The position numbers and the translations under genes were made by a program. A stretch of 64,000 nt of DNA from positions 1,248 through 65,247 of the forward strand of contig JAFGQU010000012.1 in NCBI GenBank assembly GCA_016935525.1, given 5' to 3'. This document shows positions 3,436 through 40,135 of the stretch, in pieces. Each line of letters starts with the position of its first letter. Position 1 is the first letter of the stretch. The DNA is from Candidatus Omnitrophota bacterium. GTDB lineage: Bacteria > Omnitrophota > Gorgyraeia > Duberdicusellales > 4484-171. The notes below the pieces were generated by a model. That model made no database searches, had not been told where the DNA came from, and saw nothing but the letters and a program-made list of their open reading frames with translations.

Positions 3436-4013
3436 AAGATCTATTACTGATCGTAGTCTCAACGGTACTGATTAATAATTTTGTATTAAGTTATTTTTTG
3501 GGGATCTGTCCGTTTCTGGGGGTATCGGGAAAATTATCTTCGGCAATCGGGATGGGATTAAGCGTCATTTTTGTCATGACGCTCTCTTCGAGTATCAGCT
3601 GGCTGATCTATCATCTGATCCTTATCCCCCTTGAGATCACTTTTTTATCCTATGTCGTCTTTATCCTGGTGATCGCTTCTTTGGTTCAGATCGTCGAGAT
3701 GTTTATCCGTAAATATTCTCCGCCGCTTTACCAGGCATTGGGGATCTATTTACCGTTGATCACGACTAACTGCGCTATTTTAGGATGCGCGTTATTCATG
3801 ATCGCCCGTAACTACGCGTTTTTACCGGCAGTCGTGTTTGGATTTTCCGCCGGGGTAGGGTTCACGTTAATATTGCTGGTCATGGCCGGTATCAGGGAAG
3901 AACTCCAGTTCAATGATGTCCCCGGCGTATTAAAAGGCGCTCCGATCACTCTGATCACCGCCGGGTTACTGGCGCTTTGTTTCATGGGATTTTCGGGGTT
4001 GATCAGCTCATAA
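3432..4013 (+). CDS. rnfA: Rnf complex subunit A (RnfA/NqrE family)
   Basis: LGICPFLGVSGK motif, polytopic membrane protein; translationally coupled to rnfE. Confidence 0.85.
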   Translation: MKDLLLIVVSTVLINNFVLSYFLGICPFLGVSGKLSSAIGMGLSVIFVMTLSSSISWLIYHLILIPLEITFLSYVVFILVIASLVQIVEMFIRKYSPPLYQALGIYLPLITTNCAILGCALFMIARNYAFLPAVVFGFSAGVGFTLILLVMAGIREELQFNDVPGVLKGAPITLITAGLLALCFMGFSGLISS

Positions 4014-4017
4014 AGAA

Positions 4018-4083
4018 AGTCGCTAGTCGCTAGTCTATAGTAAAAATAGACCAGAGACTAGAGACTAGAGACCAGAGACTAGG
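4018..4083. repeat. Intergenic word-repeat hairpin of the CTAGTC/CTGGTC family (agtcgctagtcgctagtct ... agaccagagactagagactagagaccagagactag)
   Basis: Imperfect inverted repeat made of degenerate 6-nt words; same word family recurs at 19734-19760, 23110-23150, 26089-26165, 35220-35260 and 39485-39565. Confidence 0.7.
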
Positions 4084-4084
4084 T

Positions 4085-4891
4085 ATGGAAATTGCCATTA
4101 AAGGTTTAATAGCATTAGGGTCGGTAGGATTTTTATTTTCCGTGTTACTCGCTTTTTTAAGTAAGAAGTTTCATGTGCGTGAAGACCCTCTTATCGAGAA
4201 GTTAAACGAAGCCTTACCGGGGATACATTGCGGTGCCTGCGGATATTCGGGATGTCATGCCTATGCCGAAGCTCTTGCCGCCGGTAAAGCCGATCCCACT
4301 ATGTGCCGGGCGGGTGGGGCCGAAAGCCAGAAGAGGATCGCCGCTCTATTAAAAGTCGAGGTGAAAAAACTTTCACCTCAGAAGATCGTCGTCCATTGCG
4401 GCGCGGATACTACTCAAAAAAAATCGTCGACACTCTATGTCGGCCCGGAATCTTGCGCGGCAGCTCACTTGTTGGGCGCGAAGATCGATTGTAAATACGG
4501 ATGCCTTTTTTTCGGTGATTGCGTAAAAATATGTCCGGTTGGTGCGCTTAAGATCAGTCAGGGAAAAGTATATGTCGACCATAAAAGATGTATCCGTTGC
4601 GGGAAATGCGTAGGCGCCTGTCCGCGTAACCTTATCGAACTCGTCACTGTTTCGCCGATTCAGCCGCTTTATTACGTGGCCTGCAGTAACCGGGAAAAAG
4701 CGTTATATGTCCGGGGAGTCTGCAGCCGGGGATGTATCGCCTGCGGTATCTGTGCCCGGATCGAGAACTCTCCATTTTATATCGAGAACAATATTTCCCG
4801 GATAAAGCGGGAAGGGGATATCGATATCCCGGCTGCCTCTTCCGCAAAAGATAAATGTCCGACGCACTGTATCGATAGCGACGATGTTTAA
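4085..4891 (+). CDS. rnfB: Rnf complex subunit B (RnfB; N-terminal membrane anchor, Cys-rich Fe-S cluster domains)
   Basis: CGACGYSGCHAYAEA N-terminal Fe-S motif plus multiple CxxCxxCxxxCP ferredoxin motifs; operon position. Confidence 0.85.
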   Translation: MEIAIKGLIALGSVGFLFSVLLAFLSKKFHVREDPLIEKLNEALPGIHCGACGYSGCHAYAEALAAGKADPTMCRAGGAESQKRIAALLKVEVKKLSPQKIVVHCGADTTQKKSSTLYVGPESCAAAHLLGAKIDCKYGCLFFGDCVKICPVGALKISQGKVYVDHKRCIRCGKCVGACPRNLIELVTVSPIQPLYYVACSNREKALYVRGVCSRGCIACGICARIENSPFYIENNISRIKREGDIDIPAASSAKDKCPTHCIDSDDV

Positions 4892-6360: not shown

Positions 6361-6482
6361 AAAATATCCAATGACCAATTTCCAAGCACCAAATAAGATC
6401 CAAGTTCCAATGACTGAAACGGATTTATTTGATTATTGATAATTTGGTGATTGGTTATTATTTGGTTATTGGGATGTGATGT
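6361..6482. repeat. ACCAATTTCCAAG / TTGGTTATTGG word-repeat module (family G)
   Basis: ccaatgaccaatttccaagcaccaaataag...ttggtgattggttattatttggttattggg; a second copy lies at 36176-36338; both sit immediately upstream of a gene start. Confidence 0.7.
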
Positions 6483-6524
6483 TTGGTGATTATACGGGAT
6501 ATAAGTAAAAGAAAGGAAAAAGCT

Positions 6525-23040: not shown

Positions 23041-23150
23041 AGCCGAGTACAGGGTTACAGGGCAGGGATAGGGTGCCGGGTTTCGGGTATCGGGTGGAGG
23101 GTGAAAACTATAGACCGTAGACCGACGACTAGCGACTATTTTTATCCGCT
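23041..23150. repeat. Composite intergenic repeat (GGGTGCCGGGTTTCGGGTATCGGGTGG words followed by CTATAGACCGTAGACCGACGACTAGCGAC words)
   Basis: Direct reading; shares words with 19769-19790 and, inverted, with 33017-33060. Confidence 0.7.
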
Positions 23151-24642: not shown

Positions 24643-26088
24643 ATGATTATAAAAAATAACAAAGAAGACTTTCTAAGTTACCTCGAAGATACCTCAAATA
24701 TCGAGGGCCATGCCGAATCGCTGTATATTCCTCACACGCAGGATGAACTTGTCACGCTGGTCGCCAGGTGTAACCAGGAAAAAATACCGCTTACCATTTC
24801 CGCGGGCCGTACCGGGACAACCGGAGGATGTGTCCCCCAAGAAGGGGTGCTGGTGAGTCTTGAAGAGTTTAACCGGATACTGTCTATCGATAAAGAACAT
24901 AAACGGGTATCGGTCCAGGCCGGTGTAGTGCTTGAAGACCTGGAACGGGAATTAAACCGTCACCGGCTTGCCTTAAGGGCGCAACCGACCGAATCGCTTG
25001 CGTGTGTGGGAGGCGCGGTATCCACAGCCGCCTCGGGAGTGCGAGGGTACCGTTGGGGAGGTATACGCAAGTACGTTGAACGGATCAAGATCTTATTCGT
25101 CGACGGCACGGTCTTTGATATCTGTCGCGGCGAGATTTTTGCTCATCAGGGAAAAATAACGGTCCCTTTAGGCGGCCGGACAAAAGAAATACGATTGCCT
25201 TCTTACCGTATGCCGCACACTAAAACTCAGGCCGGATATTTTGTCGCTCCCGACATGGACCTGATCGATCTTTTTATCGGGAGCGAAGGTACGTTGGGGA
25301 TTATTTTAGAAATAGAATTCAGCGTCCAGGAGTTAGCTGAAGAGATATTTGATTGTATCGTGTTTTTTAAAGAAGAGAAAGACGCGTTCCGGTTTGTGGA
25401 AACAATTAAAGAAAAAAAATCTAAAAAGGCTCTTAACCCGACCAGCCTTGAATTCCTCGATGCCCGGTCTTTGAGATTTTTAGGTGAAGAATACCCGCAG
25501 GCCGCCTCTTACGCTGCGGCGGTATATATCGAGCAGGAAGAATCCTCCCCGGTATCTTCGATAGCCGCCTGGATTGAGCTTATCGAATCATCCGGCGCGC
25601 TGCCGAATGAGACCTGGTTCGGCGACAGCATCCTTACCCGGAAAAAGATATTTGAGTTTCGGCATAAACTGCCGCAACGTATCAACGAATTTCTCAAAAC
25701 CCATCGTCAACGTAAGCTCTCGACCGACGTCGCGGTGCCGGAAGAAAGGTTTCTTGAGATGTACGGATTCTATGCAAAAGAAGGCGCTTCCAGCGGTATT
25801 GAATTCGTCAATTTCGGGCATATCGGCGAAAATCATCTCCATTTCAACTTTTTACCGCGTAACGATGACGAATATAGGAAAGCCAAAGAATATACTTCCA
25901 AGTTTATTAAAAAAGCCATAGAATTAGGCGGTACGGTTTCGGCGGAACACGGTATCGGGAAACTGAAAAAAGAGTCTCTCCTTTTGATGTACGGGGAAGA
26001 AGCGGTCGGCCAGATGCGGGTGTTAAAGGGGCAGTTCGATCCCAACTGGATATTGAACCGGGGCAACATCTTTGATTGCAAGGAATAG
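24643..26088 (+). CDS. FAD-binding oxidoreductase, FAD-linked oxidase (GlcD/D-lactate dehydrogenase-like) family
   Basis: PCMH-type FAD-binding domain (ISAGRTGTTGG, GSEGTLGIILEIEF) plus C-terminal oxidase domain. Confidence 0.75.
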   Translation: MIIKNNKEDFLSYLEDTSNIEGHAESLYIPHTQDELVTLVARCNQEKIPLTISAGRTGTTGGCVPQEGVLVSLEEFNRILSIDKEHKRVSVQAGVVLEDLERELNRHRLALRAQPTESLACVGGAVSTAASGVRGYRWGGIRKYVERIKILFVDGTVFDICRGEIFAHQGKITVPLGGRTKEIRLPSYRMPHTKTQAGYFVAPDMDLIDLFIGSEGTLGIILEIEFSVQELAEEIFDCIVFFKEEKDAFRFVETIKEKKSKKALNPTSLEFLDARSLRFLGEEYPQAASYAAAVYIEQEESSPVSSIAAWIELIESSGALPNETWFGDSILTRKKIFEFRHKLPQRINEFLKTHRQRKLSTDVAVPEERFLEMYGFYAKEGASSGIEFVNFGHIGENHLHFNFLPRNDDEYRKAKEYTSKFIKKAIELGGTVSAEHGIGKLKKESLLLMYGEEAVGQMRVLKGQFDPNWILNRGNIFDCKE

Positions 26089-26165
26089 TTTCTGGTCTCT
26101 AGTTTCTAGTCTCTGGTGTCTGGCCTTTTTACTGGTGACTAAAGACCAGCGACTAGCGACTAAAT
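26089..26165. repeat. CTAGTC/CTGGTC word-repeat hairpin
   Basis: tttctggtctctagtttctagtctctggtgtctgg ... aaagaccagcgactagcgactaaat. Confidence 0.7.
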
Positions 26166-29532: not shown

Positions 29533-29575
29533 ATACGGGTCACATAGACACAAGGTCACAGAGTCACACGTGATT
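29533..29575. repeat. GTCACACG-family repeat (gggtcacatagacacaaggtcacagagtcacacgtg)
   Basis: Direct reading; family recurs at ten or more loci. Confidence 0.7.
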
Positions 29576-32538: not shown

Positions 32539-32654
32539 ATCACGTCACACGACACACGTCACATAGTCACACGTCGAAAAATTCCAATATACAATAAACA
32601 AATTACAAAATAGGGTCTACTATTTAGGAGATGTGTTGACAAAATGAAGAGATT

Positions 32655-32892
32655 CCAACCACAGAGGACACCGAGGGCACGGAGTAAAAATGAGAGGTTT
32701 CAATGAGAAGATATTTGGTTTCTTCCCATCGATGTTCGATGGGGGTCTCTTTGCAAAAACGGGAGAAAACCGGCAAAATATTTTCCGGTTTTCTTCGTTT
32801 TTACAAAGAAATACGCTTTTATGGAATAAAAGCACGAAACCAAATATCTTCATCTCTTCTCTGTGGAACTCTGTGAGCTCTGTGGTTAAATC
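32655..32892. mobile_element. MITE-like element copy 1 (TIR ttCCAACCACAGAGG ... CTCTGTGGTTaaat; cargo unrelated to copies 2 and 3)
   Basis: Shares ~30-bp termini with the elements at 35851-36089 and 37287-37526; interior full of hairpins; no ORF of significance. Confidence 0.6.
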
Positions 32893-32927
32893 TTCCCGGA
32901 TGGTTAATCCCTAGTAAATTAGTAAAG

Positions 32928-33070
32928 ATTTACGTCACACGTTGCCCTTCGGGCTCGCGAAGATGAGCACAGATTGAGAAGACCACAGATGATTGCAGAT
33001 ATCCTCGTATCCCCCCACCCTGCACCCGATACCCTGTACCCGGCACCCGAGATAGTAGAAACTGGACAGG
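32928..33070. repeat. Composite repeat: GTCACACG words + conserved 80-bp module + inverted GGGTGCAGGGTATCGGGTGCCG family
   Basis: 32932-33015 is ~90% identical to 48160-48237 (gcccttcgggctcgcgaagatgagcacagattgagaagaccacagatgattgcagatatcctcgtatcccc). Confidence 0.75.
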
Positions 33071-33298
33071 GAAAAGTGGAAAGGGGACAGGGGATTTGGG
33101 TTGAAAGATAGAGAAAATGGGGGTATTATAAAAAATAAGTGAGGTATCTAGTATAGACTATATAGAATTTATATCTATGAGGTTCACCTTTATAGACATA
33201 GGTATAAAAAGTTGACAAATCCCCTCTAAATATGGTATATTTAAATTGGTCAGTTTAATTGACTGGTCTTTTAAATAGACTACAAATAGGAGATAAAA

Positions 33299-35715: not shown

Positions 35716-35850
35716 ATAGATCTTATTTTAACAAATTACCGGCAATTTTCAATTTTTTGATATAAAAAATATCTATGCCATTCATAGATCTATTGATAAT
35801 TATAGGGTTTTTTGTATTATTCCAGAAGATGCGTCCATAGAACGGATGGC

Positions 35851-36089
35851 TTTTCAACCACGGAGGACACAGAGAGCACAGAGAGGAATTGAGGGTATCC
35901 TCAATATTTGAGAAAATCTGTAATACTCAAACGCTCATTGAGCGTTTTGGGTCAGGGAGCGCAGGGCGCGTAAATAAAAAGGATTTTTTATTTCGCTGCC
36001 TGCGCTCCCTGAATGTTCCTGCGAGAGATATCTCGCAGGGTAATTACAGATTTTTTGCTCCGTGAACTCCGTGAGCTCTGTGGTTAAAT
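35851..36089. mobile_element. MITE-like element copy 2 (TIR ttCAACCACGGAGG ... CTCTGTGGTTaaat; internal 118-bp module in orientation A)
   Basis: Near-identical termini to copy 3; interior = three hairpins bounded by 12-bp inverted repeats AAAATCTGTAAT/ATTACAGATTTT. Confidence 0.75.
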
Positions 36090-36175
36090 ATCTTTCTGTG
36101 TAAAAAGGCCTTTTCGATTATACAAAATATCATAGTTGTCAAAGGGTACCGGAAACGGTATAATTAACCTTAATA

Positions 36176-36338
36176 TATATAAATATGGATTAAAATAACC
36201 AATTTCCAAGATACAATAACCAAATAATAACCAATAATCAAATTTCAATAACCAAACGAAGACTAAATACATTATTTGGTCATTGGGGATTGGGATTTGT
36301 TTGTATCTTGTTCCTTGGTTATTGGTGATTTAAAACGT
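36176..36338. repeat. ACCAATTTCCAAG / TTGGTTATTGG word-repeat module (family G, copy 2)
   Basis: accaatttccaagatacaataaccaaataataacc...ttccttggttattggtgatt; related to 6361-6482. Confidence 0.7.
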
Positions 36339-36339
36339 T

Positions 36340-37182
36340 ATGGGACAAATAGCGAACGGACAATCGGTAAAGCTGTACTTAGACCTCTTGAAAAAGACCC
36401 TTACCTTTACGTTATGGCCGGAACCGCCTCTGCCGGTTGAAATATTCAGTTATAAATATCCGGTACCGACCAGGATATTCTTTAAGATCCTTTCGGCACT
36501 ATGCCGGGTAGGGAAAATGCGGTTAGTGAAAGACCGCAGGTTCGCGTCCGGCGAACGGGAACAGGGACGGGTCTGGCCGGGATATGCCGATACGATGATC
36601 GGTCTTGCCCGGCTTGATAATATCCAGGAATGCGCTGAAACCGTGATCAAAGAGAACGTGCCCGGCGATCTTATCGAAACCGGGGTATGGCGCGGCGGTG
36701 CCTGTATCTTTATGCGGGCAGTCCTTGCTGCCTACGGTATTGTCGGCCGGAAAGTGTATGTATGTGATTCGTTTGAAGGGTTGCCGAAACCGGATGAGGA
36801 GAAATATCCCGCCGATAAAGGCGATACGCATCATGTCCATCAGTTTATCGCGGTATCGCAGGAGGAAGTTGAACATAATTTCCGGAAATACGGGTTACTT
36901 GACGAACAGGTCGTGTTTCTTAAAGGATGGTTTAAAGATACGTTACCGGCCGCGCCGATCGAGAAGATCGCCCTTATGAGGTTAGACGGCGATATGTATT
37001 CATCGACTATCGACGCGTTACAGAACCTGTACCCGAAACTGTCGCCGGGCGGGTTCTGTATTATCGACGATTACGCGTTGAAAGGATGTAAACAGGCTGT
37101 TGACGATTATCGTCGTGACCACGGTATTGCCGCGCCGATCCGCACCGTCGATTGGACCGGAGTATACTGGCGAAAAGAATAG
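36340..37182 (+). CDS. Class I SAM-dependent O-methyltransferase, TylF/MycF (macrocin O-methyltransferase) family
   Basis: TylF-family motifs (GDLIETGVWRGGACIFMRAVLAAY, VCDSFEGLP, GWFKDTLP, MRLDGDMYSST); flanked by MITE-like copies. Confidence 0.7.
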   Translation: MGQIANGQSVKLYLDLLKKTLTFTLWPEPPLPVEIFSYKYPVPTRIFFKILSALCRVGKMRLVKDRRFASGEREQGRVWPGYADTMIGLARLDNIQECAETVIKENVPGDLIETGVWRGGACIFMRAVLAAYGIVGRKVYVCDSFEGLPKPDEEKYPADKGDTHHVHQFIAVSQEEVEHNFRKYGLLDEQVVFLKGWFKDTLPAAPIEKIALMRLDGDMYSSTIDALQNLYPKLSPGGFCIIDDYALKGCKQAVDDYRRDHGIAAPIRTVDWTGVYWRKE

Positions 37183-37286
37183 CGTAGCCGGCGTTTCCCT
37201 GCCTATTTGTCTTATCTAGAGACTATGTTATAATTGACCCATTATGAATCGTATTGTTTAGAAGATGTGTTTGCAGGGTGAAGGTA

Positions 37287-37526
37287 TTTCAACCACGGAG
37301 GACACAGAGAGCACAGAGAGGAATTGAGGGTATTCTCAATATTTGAGAAAATCTGTAATCATCCTGCGAGAAGCATCTCGCAGAAACGTTCAGGGAGCGC
37401 AGGCGGCAAAATAAAATATTCCTTTTATTTACGCGCTCTGCGCTTCCTGACCCAAAACGCTCAATGAGCGTTTGAGTATTACAGATTTTTTTTGCTCTGT
37501 GAACTCCGTGAGCTCTGTGGTTAAAT
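37287..37526. mobile_element. MITE-like element copy 3 (same termini as copy 2; internal 118-bp module inverted, orientation B)
   Basis: Reverse complement of copy-2 interior aligns at ~88% to copy-3 interior while the flanks stay co-linear. Confidence 0.75.
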
Positions 37527-37542
37527 TTCTTGAATTATACAT

Positions 37543-38490
37543 ATGGATGTAGTATTTTTCGCGATAATCAACCTTTTTTTCATTATCCTGCTCGGGTTCT
37601 ATCTGTACCGGAAAACGGTCCTTACCGAAGAATCGTTGAAATTCCTCACGTTTTTCGTGATCAACCTGTCGGTACCGTTTTTGTTTTTCTCGACGATCAT
37701 CCGTACGTTCGATCCGCGTCATAGCCCGCACGTGACGACGTTTTTAGTGTTAAGTGTTACGGTATTTCTTGTCGGTATCGCCGTCGGGTATATTTTTTCG
37801 TTGTGGTCGCCGCGCCCGGTACGCCGGGAATTCCTGAGCCTTGCCGCGTTCCAAAACGGCGGGTATTTACCGATGAACCTGGCGTTATTCCTGTTTTCGG
37901 CCGCGGATAAAGATACGTTCTTGGTCTATATATTTTTGTATCTTTTAGGGTTTAACGTATTGATGTGGTCGATCGGGAGTTTCCTGATATTCCGGAATAA
38001 AGATGCCAGGTTCGAGTTGCGGTCGTTATGTACGCCGCCGGTATTGAGTACTGCTATCGCGGTCGTGCTGGCGTATACCGGGTACGCCCGGTACGTACCG
38101 GAGGTAGTGTTGAGTCCGATGAAGATCATCGGTGACGTAAGTTTTCCGGTTTCAATGATCATCCTGGGGGCGTGGCTTGCGAAAAGCCGGATACCGCGCG
38201 GGTTTTCCGAGATCAAACCGTTACTTAATGTCGCGATAGTGAAACTGGTGATCGTACCGGCACTGTTTTTTGTCGCGGCGCTTAAACTGGATATCATGCC
38301 GTTTTTAGGTTTGTTTATCGTGATCGAAGCCAGTATGCCGTCAGCGGCGACGATGCCGATCATCGCGAACATACATAACGCCAATAGTGAGTTTACTTCT
38401 CAAGGAGTGTTTTTTACCCATCTGGTAGCGCTCGTTACGGTACCGGTATGGATCGAGTTATATTTGAAAGTAACCGGGTTTATGTTATGA
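37543..38490 (+). CDS. AEC (auxin efflux carrier) family transporter
   Basis: 10-TM protein with AEC-family N-terminal motif (AIINLFFIILLGFYLYRKTVLTEESLKFLTFFVINLSVPFLFF). Confidence 0.7.
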   Translation: MDVVFFAIINLFFIILLGFYLYRKTVLTEESLKFLTFFVINLSVPFLFFSTIIRTFDPRHSPHVTTFLVLSVTVFLVGIAVGYIFSLWSPRPVRREFLSLAAFQNGGYLPMNLALFLFSAADKDTFLVYIFLYLLGFNVLMWSIGSFLIFRNKDARFELRSLCTPPVLSTAIAVVLAYTGYARYVPEVVLSPMKIIGDVSFPVSMIILGAWLAKSRIPRGFSEIKPLLNVAIVKLVIVPALFFVAALKLDIMPFLGLFIVIEASMPSAATMPIIANIHNANSEFTSQGVFFTHLVALVTVPVWIELYLKVTGFML

Positions 38491-38948: not shown

Positions 38949-39015
38949 TAAATATCGTAAACCCGGTATAATTTTAAATTCATATAGAGTTCTTTAAAAA
39001 TATAATAAAATGTCC

Positions 39016-39285
39016 GGGCCGTGAGCTTCCCGATGTCGCCCGACGGCTTATCGGGATCAGCCTGAAGAAGAGCATTAAGGTTGCTGACAATCGGCTCCAG
39101 GCAGCGAGGGCTTCCGAGCCCAAGGTTGCTGGTTCAACGCTCGGATGTGGTTCGTTGACATTGATTTTGTGAAGTTTCGTCCAAGAACGTGCGGAGGTAG
39201 GCTGTTCGGGAACGAGTCGTCGGATACACTGACCCCTCGGGGTGATTTCGCCTACGGCGAAAAGTGTATACAGTTCCAGCACGGC
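39016..39285 (+). ncRNA. tRNA-Lys-derived RNA-like locus (degenerate tRNA-Lys copy with ~65-nt and ~130-nt insertions at D-loop and T-loop positions), preceded by a TATAAT box
   Basis: GGGCCGTGAGC matches the 5' acceptor/D-stem of the downstream tRNA-Lys; gagcccaaggttgctggttc and ttccagcacggc match its anticodon-3'/T-stem and acceptor-3' segments; a -10 box at 39001-39006; occupies the position where ssrA is often found. Confidence 0.4.
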
Positions 39286-39398: not shown

Positions 39399-39483
39399 GC
39401 GCGGGTGGCGGAACTGGCAGACGCGCTAGATTCAGGTTCTAGTGGGTAACTCCGTGGGGGTTCAAATCCCCCCTCGCGCACCA
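39399..39483 (+). tRNA. tRNA-Leu (anticodon CAG), long variable arm, encoded CCA
   Basis: GCGCGGGTGGCGGAACTGGCAGACGCGCTAGATTCAGGTTCTAGTGGGTAACTCCGTGGGGGTTCAAATCCCCCCTCGCGCACCA. Confidence 0.9.
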
Positions 39484-39484
39484 T

Positions 39485-39565
39485 TTATAGTCGATAGGAT
39501 ATAGTCTCTAGTCGCTGGTCTTTAGTCTCCAGTAAAAAAGACCAGAAACCAGAGACTGAAGACTG
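39485..39565. repeat. CTAGTC/CTGGTC word-repeat hairpin (tagtctctagtcgctggtctttagtctccagt-aaaaaa-gaccagaaaccagagactgaagactg)
   Basis: Direct reading; could also act as the terminator of the tRNA cluster. Confidence 0.7.
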
Positions 39566-39999: not shown

Positions 40000-40135
40000 C
40001 GTCACATAGACACATAGTCACAAGGTCACACGTGTCTAAAAAAACAGAATATCAATTTGTCTGGATTCTTTCGTGTGACGTGTGTCGTGCTTGCCCCGTT
40101 GCGTAAACTCAAGGGGTGACTGTGTGACTTGGAAG
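40000..40135. repeat. GTCACACG-family composite repeat (includes gcttgccccgttgcg, the inverse of cgcaacggggcaagc at 48141-48155)
   Basis: gtcacgtcacatagacacatagtcacaaggtcacacgtg ... gtgtgacgtgtgtcgtgcttgccccgttgcg ... ggggtgactgtgtgac. Confidence 0.7.

What the first reader, a model, noticed from the sequence alone, without database searches (positions are those of the whole stretch)
35851..37526. Two MITE-like elements bracket a TylF-family methyltransferase gene, and their internal 118-bp module is inverted between the two copies
The ~240-bp elements at 35851-36089 and 37287-37526 share near-identical termini. The left end reads tttcAACCACGGAGGACACAGAGAGCACAGAG...AAAATCTGTAAT and the right end reads ATTACAGATTTTTTGCTCYGTGAACTCCGTGAGCTCTGTGGTTaaat. 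That gives terminal inverted repeats of the AACCACRGAG/CTCTGTGGTT type. The segment between the inner 12-bp inverted repeats (AAAATCTGTAAT / ATTACAGATTTT) consists of three hairpins (aacgctcattgagcgtt; cagggagcgcagg...cctgcgctccctg; cctgcgagagatatctcgcagg). Its reverse complement in copy 2 aligns at ~88% to copy 3, while the outer flanks stay co-linear. The hairpin order is therefore reversed in one copy. This looks like an invertible or bi-orientable cargo module inside a non-autonomous element. The two elements sit in direct orientation 1.2 kb apart and enclose a single gene, a macrocin-O-methyltransferase-family enzyme, plus a family-G repeat. That arrangement resembles a composite, mobilisable cassette. 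No transposase or invertase gene is present in the window.
Basis: seen in the sequence. Interest (0 to 1): 0.85.

Follow-up and report, generated by a model that had tools for sequence, protein, structure and literature searches.

The report
Palindromic repeats with flipped core
Two copies of a small non-coding palindromic repeat sit on either side of an ordinary, resident methyltransferase gene in an Omnitrophota genome; their 118-bp core really is flipped between the copies, but nothing shows a switch and the "mobile gene cassette" reading is wrong.

Summary
Copy 2 (35856-36085) and copy 3 (37291-37522) share near-identical flanks. Their 118-bp interior matches at 88% only as a reverse complement, against about 60% direct or self-reverse-complement. 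The interpretation mostly fails. The window comes from a Candidatus Omnitrophica MAG. Two syntenic relatives carry the same EF-hand / TylF methyltransferase / transporter / SmpB gene order with spacers of 124 and 66-70 bp and no elements. So the methyltransferase is resident, and the elements (plus the "family-G" repeat) are separate insertions into promoter-proximal DNA, not a composite cassette. The element is about 266 bp and asymmetric: a 31-nt leader, arms of three CACRGAG units 9 bp apart, a side hairpin, and a 142-bp module closed by a perfect 12-bp inverted repeat around three hairpins. A third copy has the same frame and a different module. The arm motif is widespread, including in phage contigs. 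No recombinase or transposase lies in the window, the core holds no promoter or terminator, and the core is more diverged (14/119) than the flanks (4/114). The flip is best read as an old, fixed rearrangement across the inner repeat, or as core acquisition in either orientation. Active switching could not be tested without reads.

The parts
35824..36089 (+). Copy 2, full element: leader 35824-35855 (AGAAGATGCGT block); left arm 35856-35886; side hairpin H0 35887-35912; inner repeat 35913-35924; core 35925-36042 (H1 35929-35947, H2 35952-36012, H3 36018-36039); inner repeat 36043-36054; right arm 36055-36085; tail AAAT
37260..37526 (+). Copy 3, full element, same frame as copy 2. Core 37360-37477 is inverted: H3' 37363-37383, H2' 37390-37450, H1' 37455-37473. 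Inner repeats 37348-37359 and 37478-37489
32626..32891 (+). Copy 1: same leader block, arms and tail. Unrelated interior with its own closing repeat (GATATTTGGTTTC / GAAACCAAATATC) and a short-long-short set of three hairpins
36340..37182 (+). TylF/MycF-family methyltransferase gene. Resident, not cargo: it sits at the same syntenic position in L131 and L133, which lack the elements
36136..36164 (+). Promoter-like site of the methyltransferase gene (TTGTCA-17-TATAAT), conserved in L131. Copy 2 lies just upstream of it
36168..36330 (+). 'Family-G' palindromic repeat: a separate insertion between the -10 box and the ATG of the methyltransferase gene, absent in the relatives
37207..37248 (+). Conserved promoter (TTGTCT-16-TATAAT) plus the vestigial start ATGAA (37244-37248) of the transporter gene. 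In the relatives the -10 box is followed after 9 nt by the ATG. In the window copy 3 is inserted right after this point
37543..38490 (+). Mem_trans (AEC-family) transporter gene, followed by smpB. Its start codon is now about 300 bp from its ancestral promoter

Best explanation
These are copies of a modular, non-coding, MITE-like palindromic repeat. In the lineage of this Omnitrophota genome they inserted independently into AT-rich promoter-proximal DNA on either side of a resident methyltransferase gene. Copy 2 sits just upstream of that gene's promoter. Copy 3 sits between the -10 box and the near-leaderless start codon of the downstream transporter-smpB operon. Each element consists of a 31-nt leader, two arms of three CACRGAG units, a side hairpin, and a 142-bp four-way-junction module closed by a perfect 12-bp inverted repeat. 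The opposite core orientation is an old, fixed rearrangement. The breakpoints fall inside the only perfect inverted repeat of the element, as expected for homology-dependent recombination or replication template switching between the two repeat arms. It is not a programmed switch. Shown: the anatomy, the inversion, absence at orthologous sites in relatives, no recombinase in the window, and unequal divergence between segments. Inferred: the inversion mechanism, co-transcription as a long structured 5' leader, and mobilisation in trans.
For: Inversion and anatomy. Leader and tail specific to the three copies. Empty orthologous sites in two syntenic relatives. A different palindrome fills the copy 1 site in the relative. 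Modularity: copy 1 has the same frame with another core. Colinearity switches exactly at the edges of the 12-bp perfect repeat, whereas the arms pair only in 7-bp blocks. Flanks 4/114 versus core 14/119 differences, Fisher p=0.025; leader 17/46. No promoter or terminator consensus in the copy 2 or copy 3 core. No recombinase or transposase family in the window. The arm motif is widespread, with paired elements of 76-335 bp.
Against: Only two copies of this core exist in the data, so the flip is a single event and its mechanism is inferred. A target-site duplication is not established: a ~20-bp direct repeat at copy 2 (46 of 2000 shuffles), nothing significant at copy 3. No cognate transposase was found anywhere. 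If flanks and core share one history, the higher core divergence needs an extra assumption, either constraint or gene conversion acting on the colinear flanks only. Most arm-motif hits in phage contigs are solo sites at gene starts, so the arms may be functional sites and not transposon ends.
Confidence: 0.5

Rival explanations
1. Nested element. The 142-bp module (12-bp repeat plus three hairpins) is itself a small mobile palindrome. It inserted independently, in either orientation, into the centre of two pre-existing copies of the outer frame.
For: Copy 1 carries the same frame with an unrelated module. L123, another Omnitrophota MAG, has the same AAAATCTGTAAT repeat around different hairpins, next to a different (CACGAAG-type) arm on one side only. 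The core is more diverged than the flanks, as expected if they have separate histories. Short paired elements with no cargo exist in the superfamily.
Against: No direct duplication flanks the module. It would require two insertions at exactly the same base of the frame. No solo copy of the module or of its repeat exists in the window or in the collections.
Confidence: 0.25
2. Programmed invertible switch. A recombinase encoded elsewhere flips the core between the 12-bp repeats to regulate the downstream genes.
For: Perfect inverted repeats lie exactly at the breakpoints. Both copies lie in promoter or 5'-leader regions of genes.
Against: No recombinase in 64 kb. No promoter or terminator consensus inside the core in either orientation. 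The two cores differ by 12% and are not homogenised. Each hairpin is itself palindromic, so flipping changes little apart from hairpin order and loop sequence.
Confidence: 0.08
3. Composite transposon or mobilisable cassette: the two elements mobilise the methyltransferase gene between them. A related variant is that they are integron attC-like sites.
For: Two direct copies bracket a single gene. The right end GTTAAAT fits the attC core GTTRRRY; this is my own comparison with the consensus from established knowledge.
Against: The methyltransferase is at the same position in two relatives that lack the elements, with spacers of 124 and 66-70 bp. Its GC of 0.50-0.53 equals that of its neighbours. 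No integrase is present. At 230-266 bp the element exceeds the attC size range. The left end TTTCAAC does not fit RYYYAAC.
Confidence: 0.02
4. Cis-acting structured RNA. The element is kept because, once transcribed, its hairpin and four-way junction stabilise, process or attenuate the downstream mRNA. The conserved architecture reflects RNA function.
For: Four modules with unrelated sequence share the same fold, with z-scores of -9 to -16. All three copies are co-oriented with the downstream genes, and copy 3 lies between a conserved promoter and its gene. The + strand folds 3-5 kcal/mol better in all three full elements. The L123 module has 5 G-U pairs on one strand against 1 on the other, and -63 against -44 kcal/mol.
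Against: No Rfam match. The strand bias in the window copies is small, and in copy 3 the core's better strand is the antisense one. Stem differences between copies are single transitions with no compensatory pairs. 57 of 60 ORFs are on the + strand, so co-orientation carries little weight.
Confidence: 0.15

Closest known systems
Bacterial MITEs, e.g. Correia elements of Neisseria (reviews PMC10969869, PMC3184786)
   Same: Small, non-coding, with terminal inverted repeats, multi-copy and intergenic. They insert next to or inside promoters and 5' leaders and fold into long hairpins when transcribed. They show presence/absence polymorphism between relatives and exist as structural subtypes.
   Different: The arms are three 9-bp-spaced heptamer units and not a plain terminal repeat. 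There is an asymmetric 31-nt leader. No clear short target duplication and no cognate IS were identified. The core is a four-way-junction module found in both orientations.
REP / BIME / REPIN elements with RAYT transposases (PMC3733652)
   Same: Palindromic intergenic repeats arranged as mosaics of modules in either orientation. Several families occur per genome, and intergenic hotspots are filled differently in relatives.
   Different: No GTAG or CGTC head, a much larger unit, no RAYT gene in the window, and periodic heptamer arms.
Site-specific invertible DNA segments (fimS, hin and the invertons detected by PhaseFinder-type read mapping; from established knowledge)
   Same: A short segment bounded by inverted repeats, lying in a regulatory region and found in two orientations.
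   Different: No adjacent recombinase and no promoter or terminator in the segment. The two orientations are seen at two different, 12% diverged loci and not at one locus.
Flip/flop isomers of parvovirus terminal hairpins (from established knowledge)
   Same: A stem closing small asymmetric internal hairpins that exists in two forms, each the inverted complement of the other.
   Different: In parvoviruses the whole terminal palindrome is inverted by hairpin transfer during replication. Here only the part inside the perfect 12-bp repeat is inverted, while the arms and side hairpin stay colinear.
Short tandemly repeated heptamers (STRR) and small dispersed repeats of cyanobacteria (recalled from memory, not checked here)
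   Same: Intergenic arrays of 7-9-nt units in several families per genome, with small elements nested in one another.
   Different: Different phylum and unit sequences. Here the arrays come as inverted pairs that close a cargo.

Membership tests
MITE | Small (<~600 bp), non-coding | tested here: met
   About 266 bp. All frames are interrupted and the short ORFs are not conserved between copies.
MITE | Terminal inverted repeats | tested here: met
   AACCACRGAG..CAC.GAG..CACRGAG on both ends, inverted. They are imperfect because the 2-nt spacers do not pair.
MITE | Multiple dispersed copies | tested here: met
   Three copies in 64 kb.
MITE | Presence/absence at orthologous sites | tested here: met
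   The copy 2 and copy 3 sites are empty in L131; the copy 3 site is also empty in L133.
MITE | Target-site duplication of fixed length | tested here: inconclusive
   Copy 2: a 21-bp direct repeat with 18 matches, reached by 46 of 2000 shuffles. Copy 3: only ATGAA/ATGGA, not significant.
MITE | Cognate autonomous IS with the same ends | tested here: not met
   None in the window. Far-spaced terminus pairs in phage contigs enclose terminase, DnaB and AAA genes, not transposases. The whole genome could not be searched.
REP/REPIN-RAYT | 20-40-bp palindromic unit with a GTAG or CGTC head, and a RAYT gene flanked by units | tested here: not met
   The ends read AACCAC, and no Y1 transposase family is in the window.
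Site-specific inversion switch | Inverted repeats at the borders of the segment | tested here: met
   A perfect 12-bp AAAATCTGTAAT / ATTACAGATTTT at both loci.
Site-specific inversion switch | Dedicated serine or tyrosine recombinase, usually adjacent | tested here: not met
   No such Pfam family in the 64-kb window. The rest of the genome was not searched.
Site-specific inversion switch | Both orientations at one locus within a population | not testable with these tools
   Only one assembly and fragmented Logan contigs of SRR13394437 are available. Those contigs break at repeated k-mers and carry no orientation information.
Site-specific inversion switch | Orientation-dependent promoter, terminator or coding end inside the segment | tested here: not met
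   The consensus scans find none in the copy 2 or copy 3 core.
Composite transposon / gene cassette | The enclosed gene is absent from the orthologous site in relatives and travels with the flanking elements | tested here: not met
   The gene is present at the same site in L131 and L133 without elements.
Integron attC | 57-141-bp site with RYYYAAC...GTTRRRY cores, and an IntI integrase | tested here: not met
   The element is 230-266 bp. The left core TTTCAAC does not fit, and no integrase is in the window.
Known RNA family (Rfam 15) | Match at or near the gathering score | tested here: not met
   Only tRNAs reach threshold. The best sub-threshold hits over the elements have E>1.

The most novel reading that the evidence does not exclude
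The 142-bp four-way-junction module is a functional unit, either an RNA or a recombination substrate. Its architecture, and not its sequence, is conserved across Omnitrophota, and it can be flipped in place between its perfect 12-bp repeats by a trans-acting enzyme. That would give a dispersed set of small invertible regulatory modules riding on a widespread CACRGAG-armed repeat shared with phages.
Probability: 0.07. Interest if true: 0.7.

Novelty: new member of a known kind. Interest (0 to 1): 0.3.

Why it matters
As it stands, this is a tidy example of how small palindromic repeats remodel promoters and leaders in an uncultured phylum. One insertion separates a near-leaderless gene from its promoter by about 300 structured bases. 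It also shows that a gene bracketed by two repeats need not be mobile. The repeat family itself does not appear to be described: I found no Rfam match and no literature hit for its sequence. Its arm motif is common in environmental bacteria and phages. A census of cargo types and orientations in complete genomes could show whether small palindromic repeats exchange or flip their cores as a rule.

Tried and rejected
1. Finding more copies of this subfamily failed everywhere.
   - The inner-repeat pattern gave nothing in viral contigs.
   - In genome contigs it gave 5 hits, of which only L123 is related.
   - In metagenome contigs it gave 2 chance hits inside coding sequence.
   - The core-hairpin pattern gave nothing in viral contigs.
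   - A left-flank pattern was rejected by the tool and never run.
   - A translated element used as a protein query, to catch spurious ORFs, gave no hit.
2. Extending the source genome also failed. Look-ups of edge genes returned only Logan contigs of SRR13394437, adding about 1.2 kb on the left and 3 kb on the right, with no new copy.
3. The Logan contig ends fall where shared 31-mers end, so they say nothing about orientation heterogeneity.
4. A long (17-27 bp) target duplication at copy 3 looked plausible by eye, but it was not significant in flank-versus-flank or anchored tests and I dropped it.
5. The short ORFs starting at the leader's ATG (MCLQGEG..., MRP*, MC*) are not conserved, so the leader is not coding.
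6. Promoter-like hexamers precede all three copies, but at variable distance and no more often than in shuffles, so they are not counted as part of the element.
7. Literature searches for the arm sequence and for Omnitrophota repeats found nothing relevant.

Full report
**Observation**

The sequence is as described. Copy 2 (AACCAC...GTGGTT, 35856-36085) and copy 3 (37291-37522) share a 69-nt left flank (68/69 identical) and a 43/45-nt right flank (42/45).

The 118 nt between the inner repeats AAAATCTGTAAT / ATTACAGATTTT align at 105/119 (88%) only when one copy is reverse-complemented. Direct alignment gives 60%. Each interior against its own reverse complement gives 59-60%. The interior is therefore not a palindrome and the inversion is real. 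None of these matches is expected by chance in the window.

**Refined anatomy**

- The arms are three CACRGAG heptamers spaced 9 bp apart, in inverted orientation at the two ends. The 2-nt spacers of the left and right arms do not pair, so the arms are complementary only in 7-bp blocks.
- A side hairpin (35887-35912) lies outside the inner repeat and stays on the left in both copies.
- The element is asymmetric and longer than TIR to TIR. The block AGRAGATGYGT occurs exactly three times in 64 kb, each time 31-32 nt before AACCAC (0.15 matches expected). GTGAGCTCTGTGGTTAAAT ends all three copies.
- The full spans are 32626-32891, 35824-36089 and 37260-37526.
- Whole elements fold at -108 to -124 kcal/mol, with z-scores of -11 to -14.

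**Modularity**

Copy 1 has the same leader block, arms and tail but a completely different interior.

That interior has the same architecture as the others: a 12-14-bp closing repeat around a short, a long and a short hairpin, i.e. a four-way junction. The core of copies 2 and 3 folds this way in both orientations. So does a module in another Omnitrophota MAG (L123). The L123 module is bounded by the identical AAAATCTGTAAT repeat but has different hairpins and only one arm, of the CACGAAG type. Frame and cargo therefore reassort.

**The arm motif is a superfamily**

- About 14 hits form short paired elements of 76-335 bp.
- Most of the roughly 170 hits are solo sites of about 40 nt. Their consensus is ggtTTAACCACAGAGGACACAGAGGACACGGAGggggag, and many lie at or just before gene starts in the gene's orientation.
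- The contigs are genuine phages: terminase, DnaB and AAA genes lie between the sites.
- No Rfam family matches, and the literature search found no description.

**Source and synteny, the decisive result**

The methyltransferase is 100% identical to a protein of an NCBI MAG named Candidatus Omnitrophica bacterium, on a 117-kb contig. Its nearest relatives, at 81% and 79% identity, sit on contigs L133 and L131.

L131 is colinear with window ~24.8-42.7 kb. It has the order EF-hand protein (-), TylF methyltransferase, Mem_trans transporter, SmpB, archease, RtcB, and L133 has the methyltransferase, transporter, SmpB part.

Their spacers are 124 bp (EF-hand to methyltransferase) and 66-70 bp (methyltransferase to transporter). 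The window's are 625 and 361 bp. Alignment shows that copy 2, the family-G repeat and copy 3 are all absent from the relatives. The methyltransferase has the same GC as its neighbours.

The methyltransferase is therefore a resident gene, and the elements are later, separate insertions. The composite-cassette reading is refuted.

**Insertion sites**

- Copy 3. In both relatives a conserved promoter block (TTGTCT-N16-TATAAT) is followed after 9 nt by the transporter's ATG (TATAATTATCCCATTATGAACGTGGTG), a near-leaderless arrangement. In the window the block and a vestigial ATGAA are kept at 37207-37248. About 295 bp containing copy 3 follow, and the gene restarts at ATGGATGTAG (37543).
- Copy 2 lies just upstream of the conserved methyltransferase promoter (TTGTCA-17-TATAAT, 36136-36164).
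- The family-G palindrome lies between that promoter's -10 box and the ATG (TATAATTAA|...|TAAAACGTTATGG).
- At the copy 1 site the relative carries a different periodic palindrome, of the CCCGTT/AACGGG family. Such spacers are hotspots.
- Target duplication is unresolved. Copy 2 has a 21-bp direct repeat with 18 matches (46 of 2000 shuffles reach the score). Nothing is significant at copy 3.

**The inversion**

Colinearity switches to inverted exactly at the edges of the perfect 12-bp repeat, the only perfect inverted repeat in the element.

Divergence differs between segments: flanks 4/114, core 14/119 (p=0.025), leader 17/46 (core versus leader p=0.0006). So the flip is not recent. Either the flanks are constrained or homogenised, for example by gene conversion between the two direct copies 1.4 kb apart, which cannot extend into an inverted core. 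Or core and frame have separate histories.

The core contains no promoter or terminator consensus. Pfam finds no transposase, invertase or integrase in the 46 long ORFs scanned (nine of them have no match at all), and the other 14 of the 60 long ORFs carry ordinary annotations from the contig look-ups.

I favour a rare homology-driven inversion across the inner repeat (confidence 0.5 for the overall picture). Independent nested insertion of the module in either orientation is the main rival (0.25). A programmed switch is unlikely (0.08) but cannot be excluded without reads.

**RNA or DNA**

The + strand folds 3-5 kcal/mol better than the - strand in all three full elements and has 1-2 more G-U pairs. 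In copy 3, however, the core's better strand is the antisense one. Differences in stems between the two cores are single transitions with no compensatory pairs.

Only L123 shows a strong RNA-like asymmetry: -63 against -44 kcal/mol, and 5 G-U pairs against 1. Co-orientation with genes carries little weight, because 57 of 60 ORFs are on the + strand.

A cis-acting RNA role, as a structured 5' leader, is plausible for copy 3 from its position. It is not demonstrated.

**Comparison and verdict**

The elements behave like bacterial MITEs or REP-type mosaics. They are small, palindromic, multi-copy, polymorphic between relatives, and inserted in regulatory DNA. Two MITE criteria are not met or unresolved: the target duplication and a cognate IS. 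The REP/RAYT, integron attC and composite-transposon criteria fail.

The family appears undescribed and has unusual arms and a bi-orientable four-way-junction core. Even so, I rate it a new member of a known kind, of modest interest (0.3). Its two headline interpretations are refuted (cassette) and unproven and unlikely (switch).

**Dead ends**

No further copy of this subfamily could be found by DNA patterns or by protein searches. The rest of the source genome could not be reached. The Logan contig ends are explained by shared k-mers.

Noticed in passing
window 36168-36330: The 'family-G' palindrome (CAATAAC/CCAAT-type periodic arms) is itself an insertion between the -10 box and the ATG of the methyltransferase gene. 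The relatives read TATAATTAAAAAGTTATGG there. A related copy lies at 6363-6493.
   Followed up: partly
window 37207-37248; L131 10860-10905; L133 900-945: The transporter-smpB operon of the relatives looks near-leaderless (TATAAT + 9 nt + ATG). The promoter block is about 90% conserved across three genomes, while the rest of the spacer cannot be aligned.
   Followed up: partly
L002-L121 (viral contigs), e.g. L011 470/703, L018 1132/1362, L112: A solo ~40-nt motif of three CACRGAG units recurs at gene junctions of genuine, GC-rich phage contigs, usually in the gene's orientation and containing GGAGG. Its function is unknown.
   Followed up: partly
window 32932-33014 and 48156-48238; L131 8940-9011: An 83-nt repeat, 93% identical within the window, is 86% conserved in the relative. 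That is more conserved than the surrounding intergenic DNA. There is no Rfam hit.
   Followed up: no
window 4004-4088, 26086-26165, 39481-39538; 29539-29572, 40001-40034; 23071-23103, 33016-33048, 60436-60466: At least five other intergenic repeat families are built from 7-9-nt periodic units (AGACYAG, GTCACAnn, ACCCnnn, ...), often as inverted pairs. Some are shared with L131.
   Followed up: partly
window 32575-33211 versus L131 8086-8276: The same intergenic site is filled by different palindromic repeats in the two genomes. The window has family-G-like + copy 1 + others; the relative has a CCCGTT/AACGGG periodic palindrome.
   Followed up: partly
L123 6263-6402: The module of the other Omnitrophota MAG folds much better on one strand (-63 against -44 kcal/mol; 5 G-U pairs against 1). 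This RNA-like asymmetry is absent from the window's copies.
   Followed up: partly
L124 3376-3497 and L126 6865-6986 (Saccharibacteria): A hairpin-rich ~120-bp palindrome bounded by the same 12-nt repeat AAAATCTGTAAT lies between convergent genes in two Saccharibacteria genomes. It could be chance or a distant relative.
   Followed up: no
window 39015-39094; L131 12458-12537: An 80-nt stretch between smpB and the tRNA genes is 86% conserved in the relative and has no Rfam match. No tmRNA was detected in the window, although smpB is present.
   Followed up: no
whole window: 57 of 60 long ORFs are on the + strand, an unusually strong strand bias.
   Followed up: no
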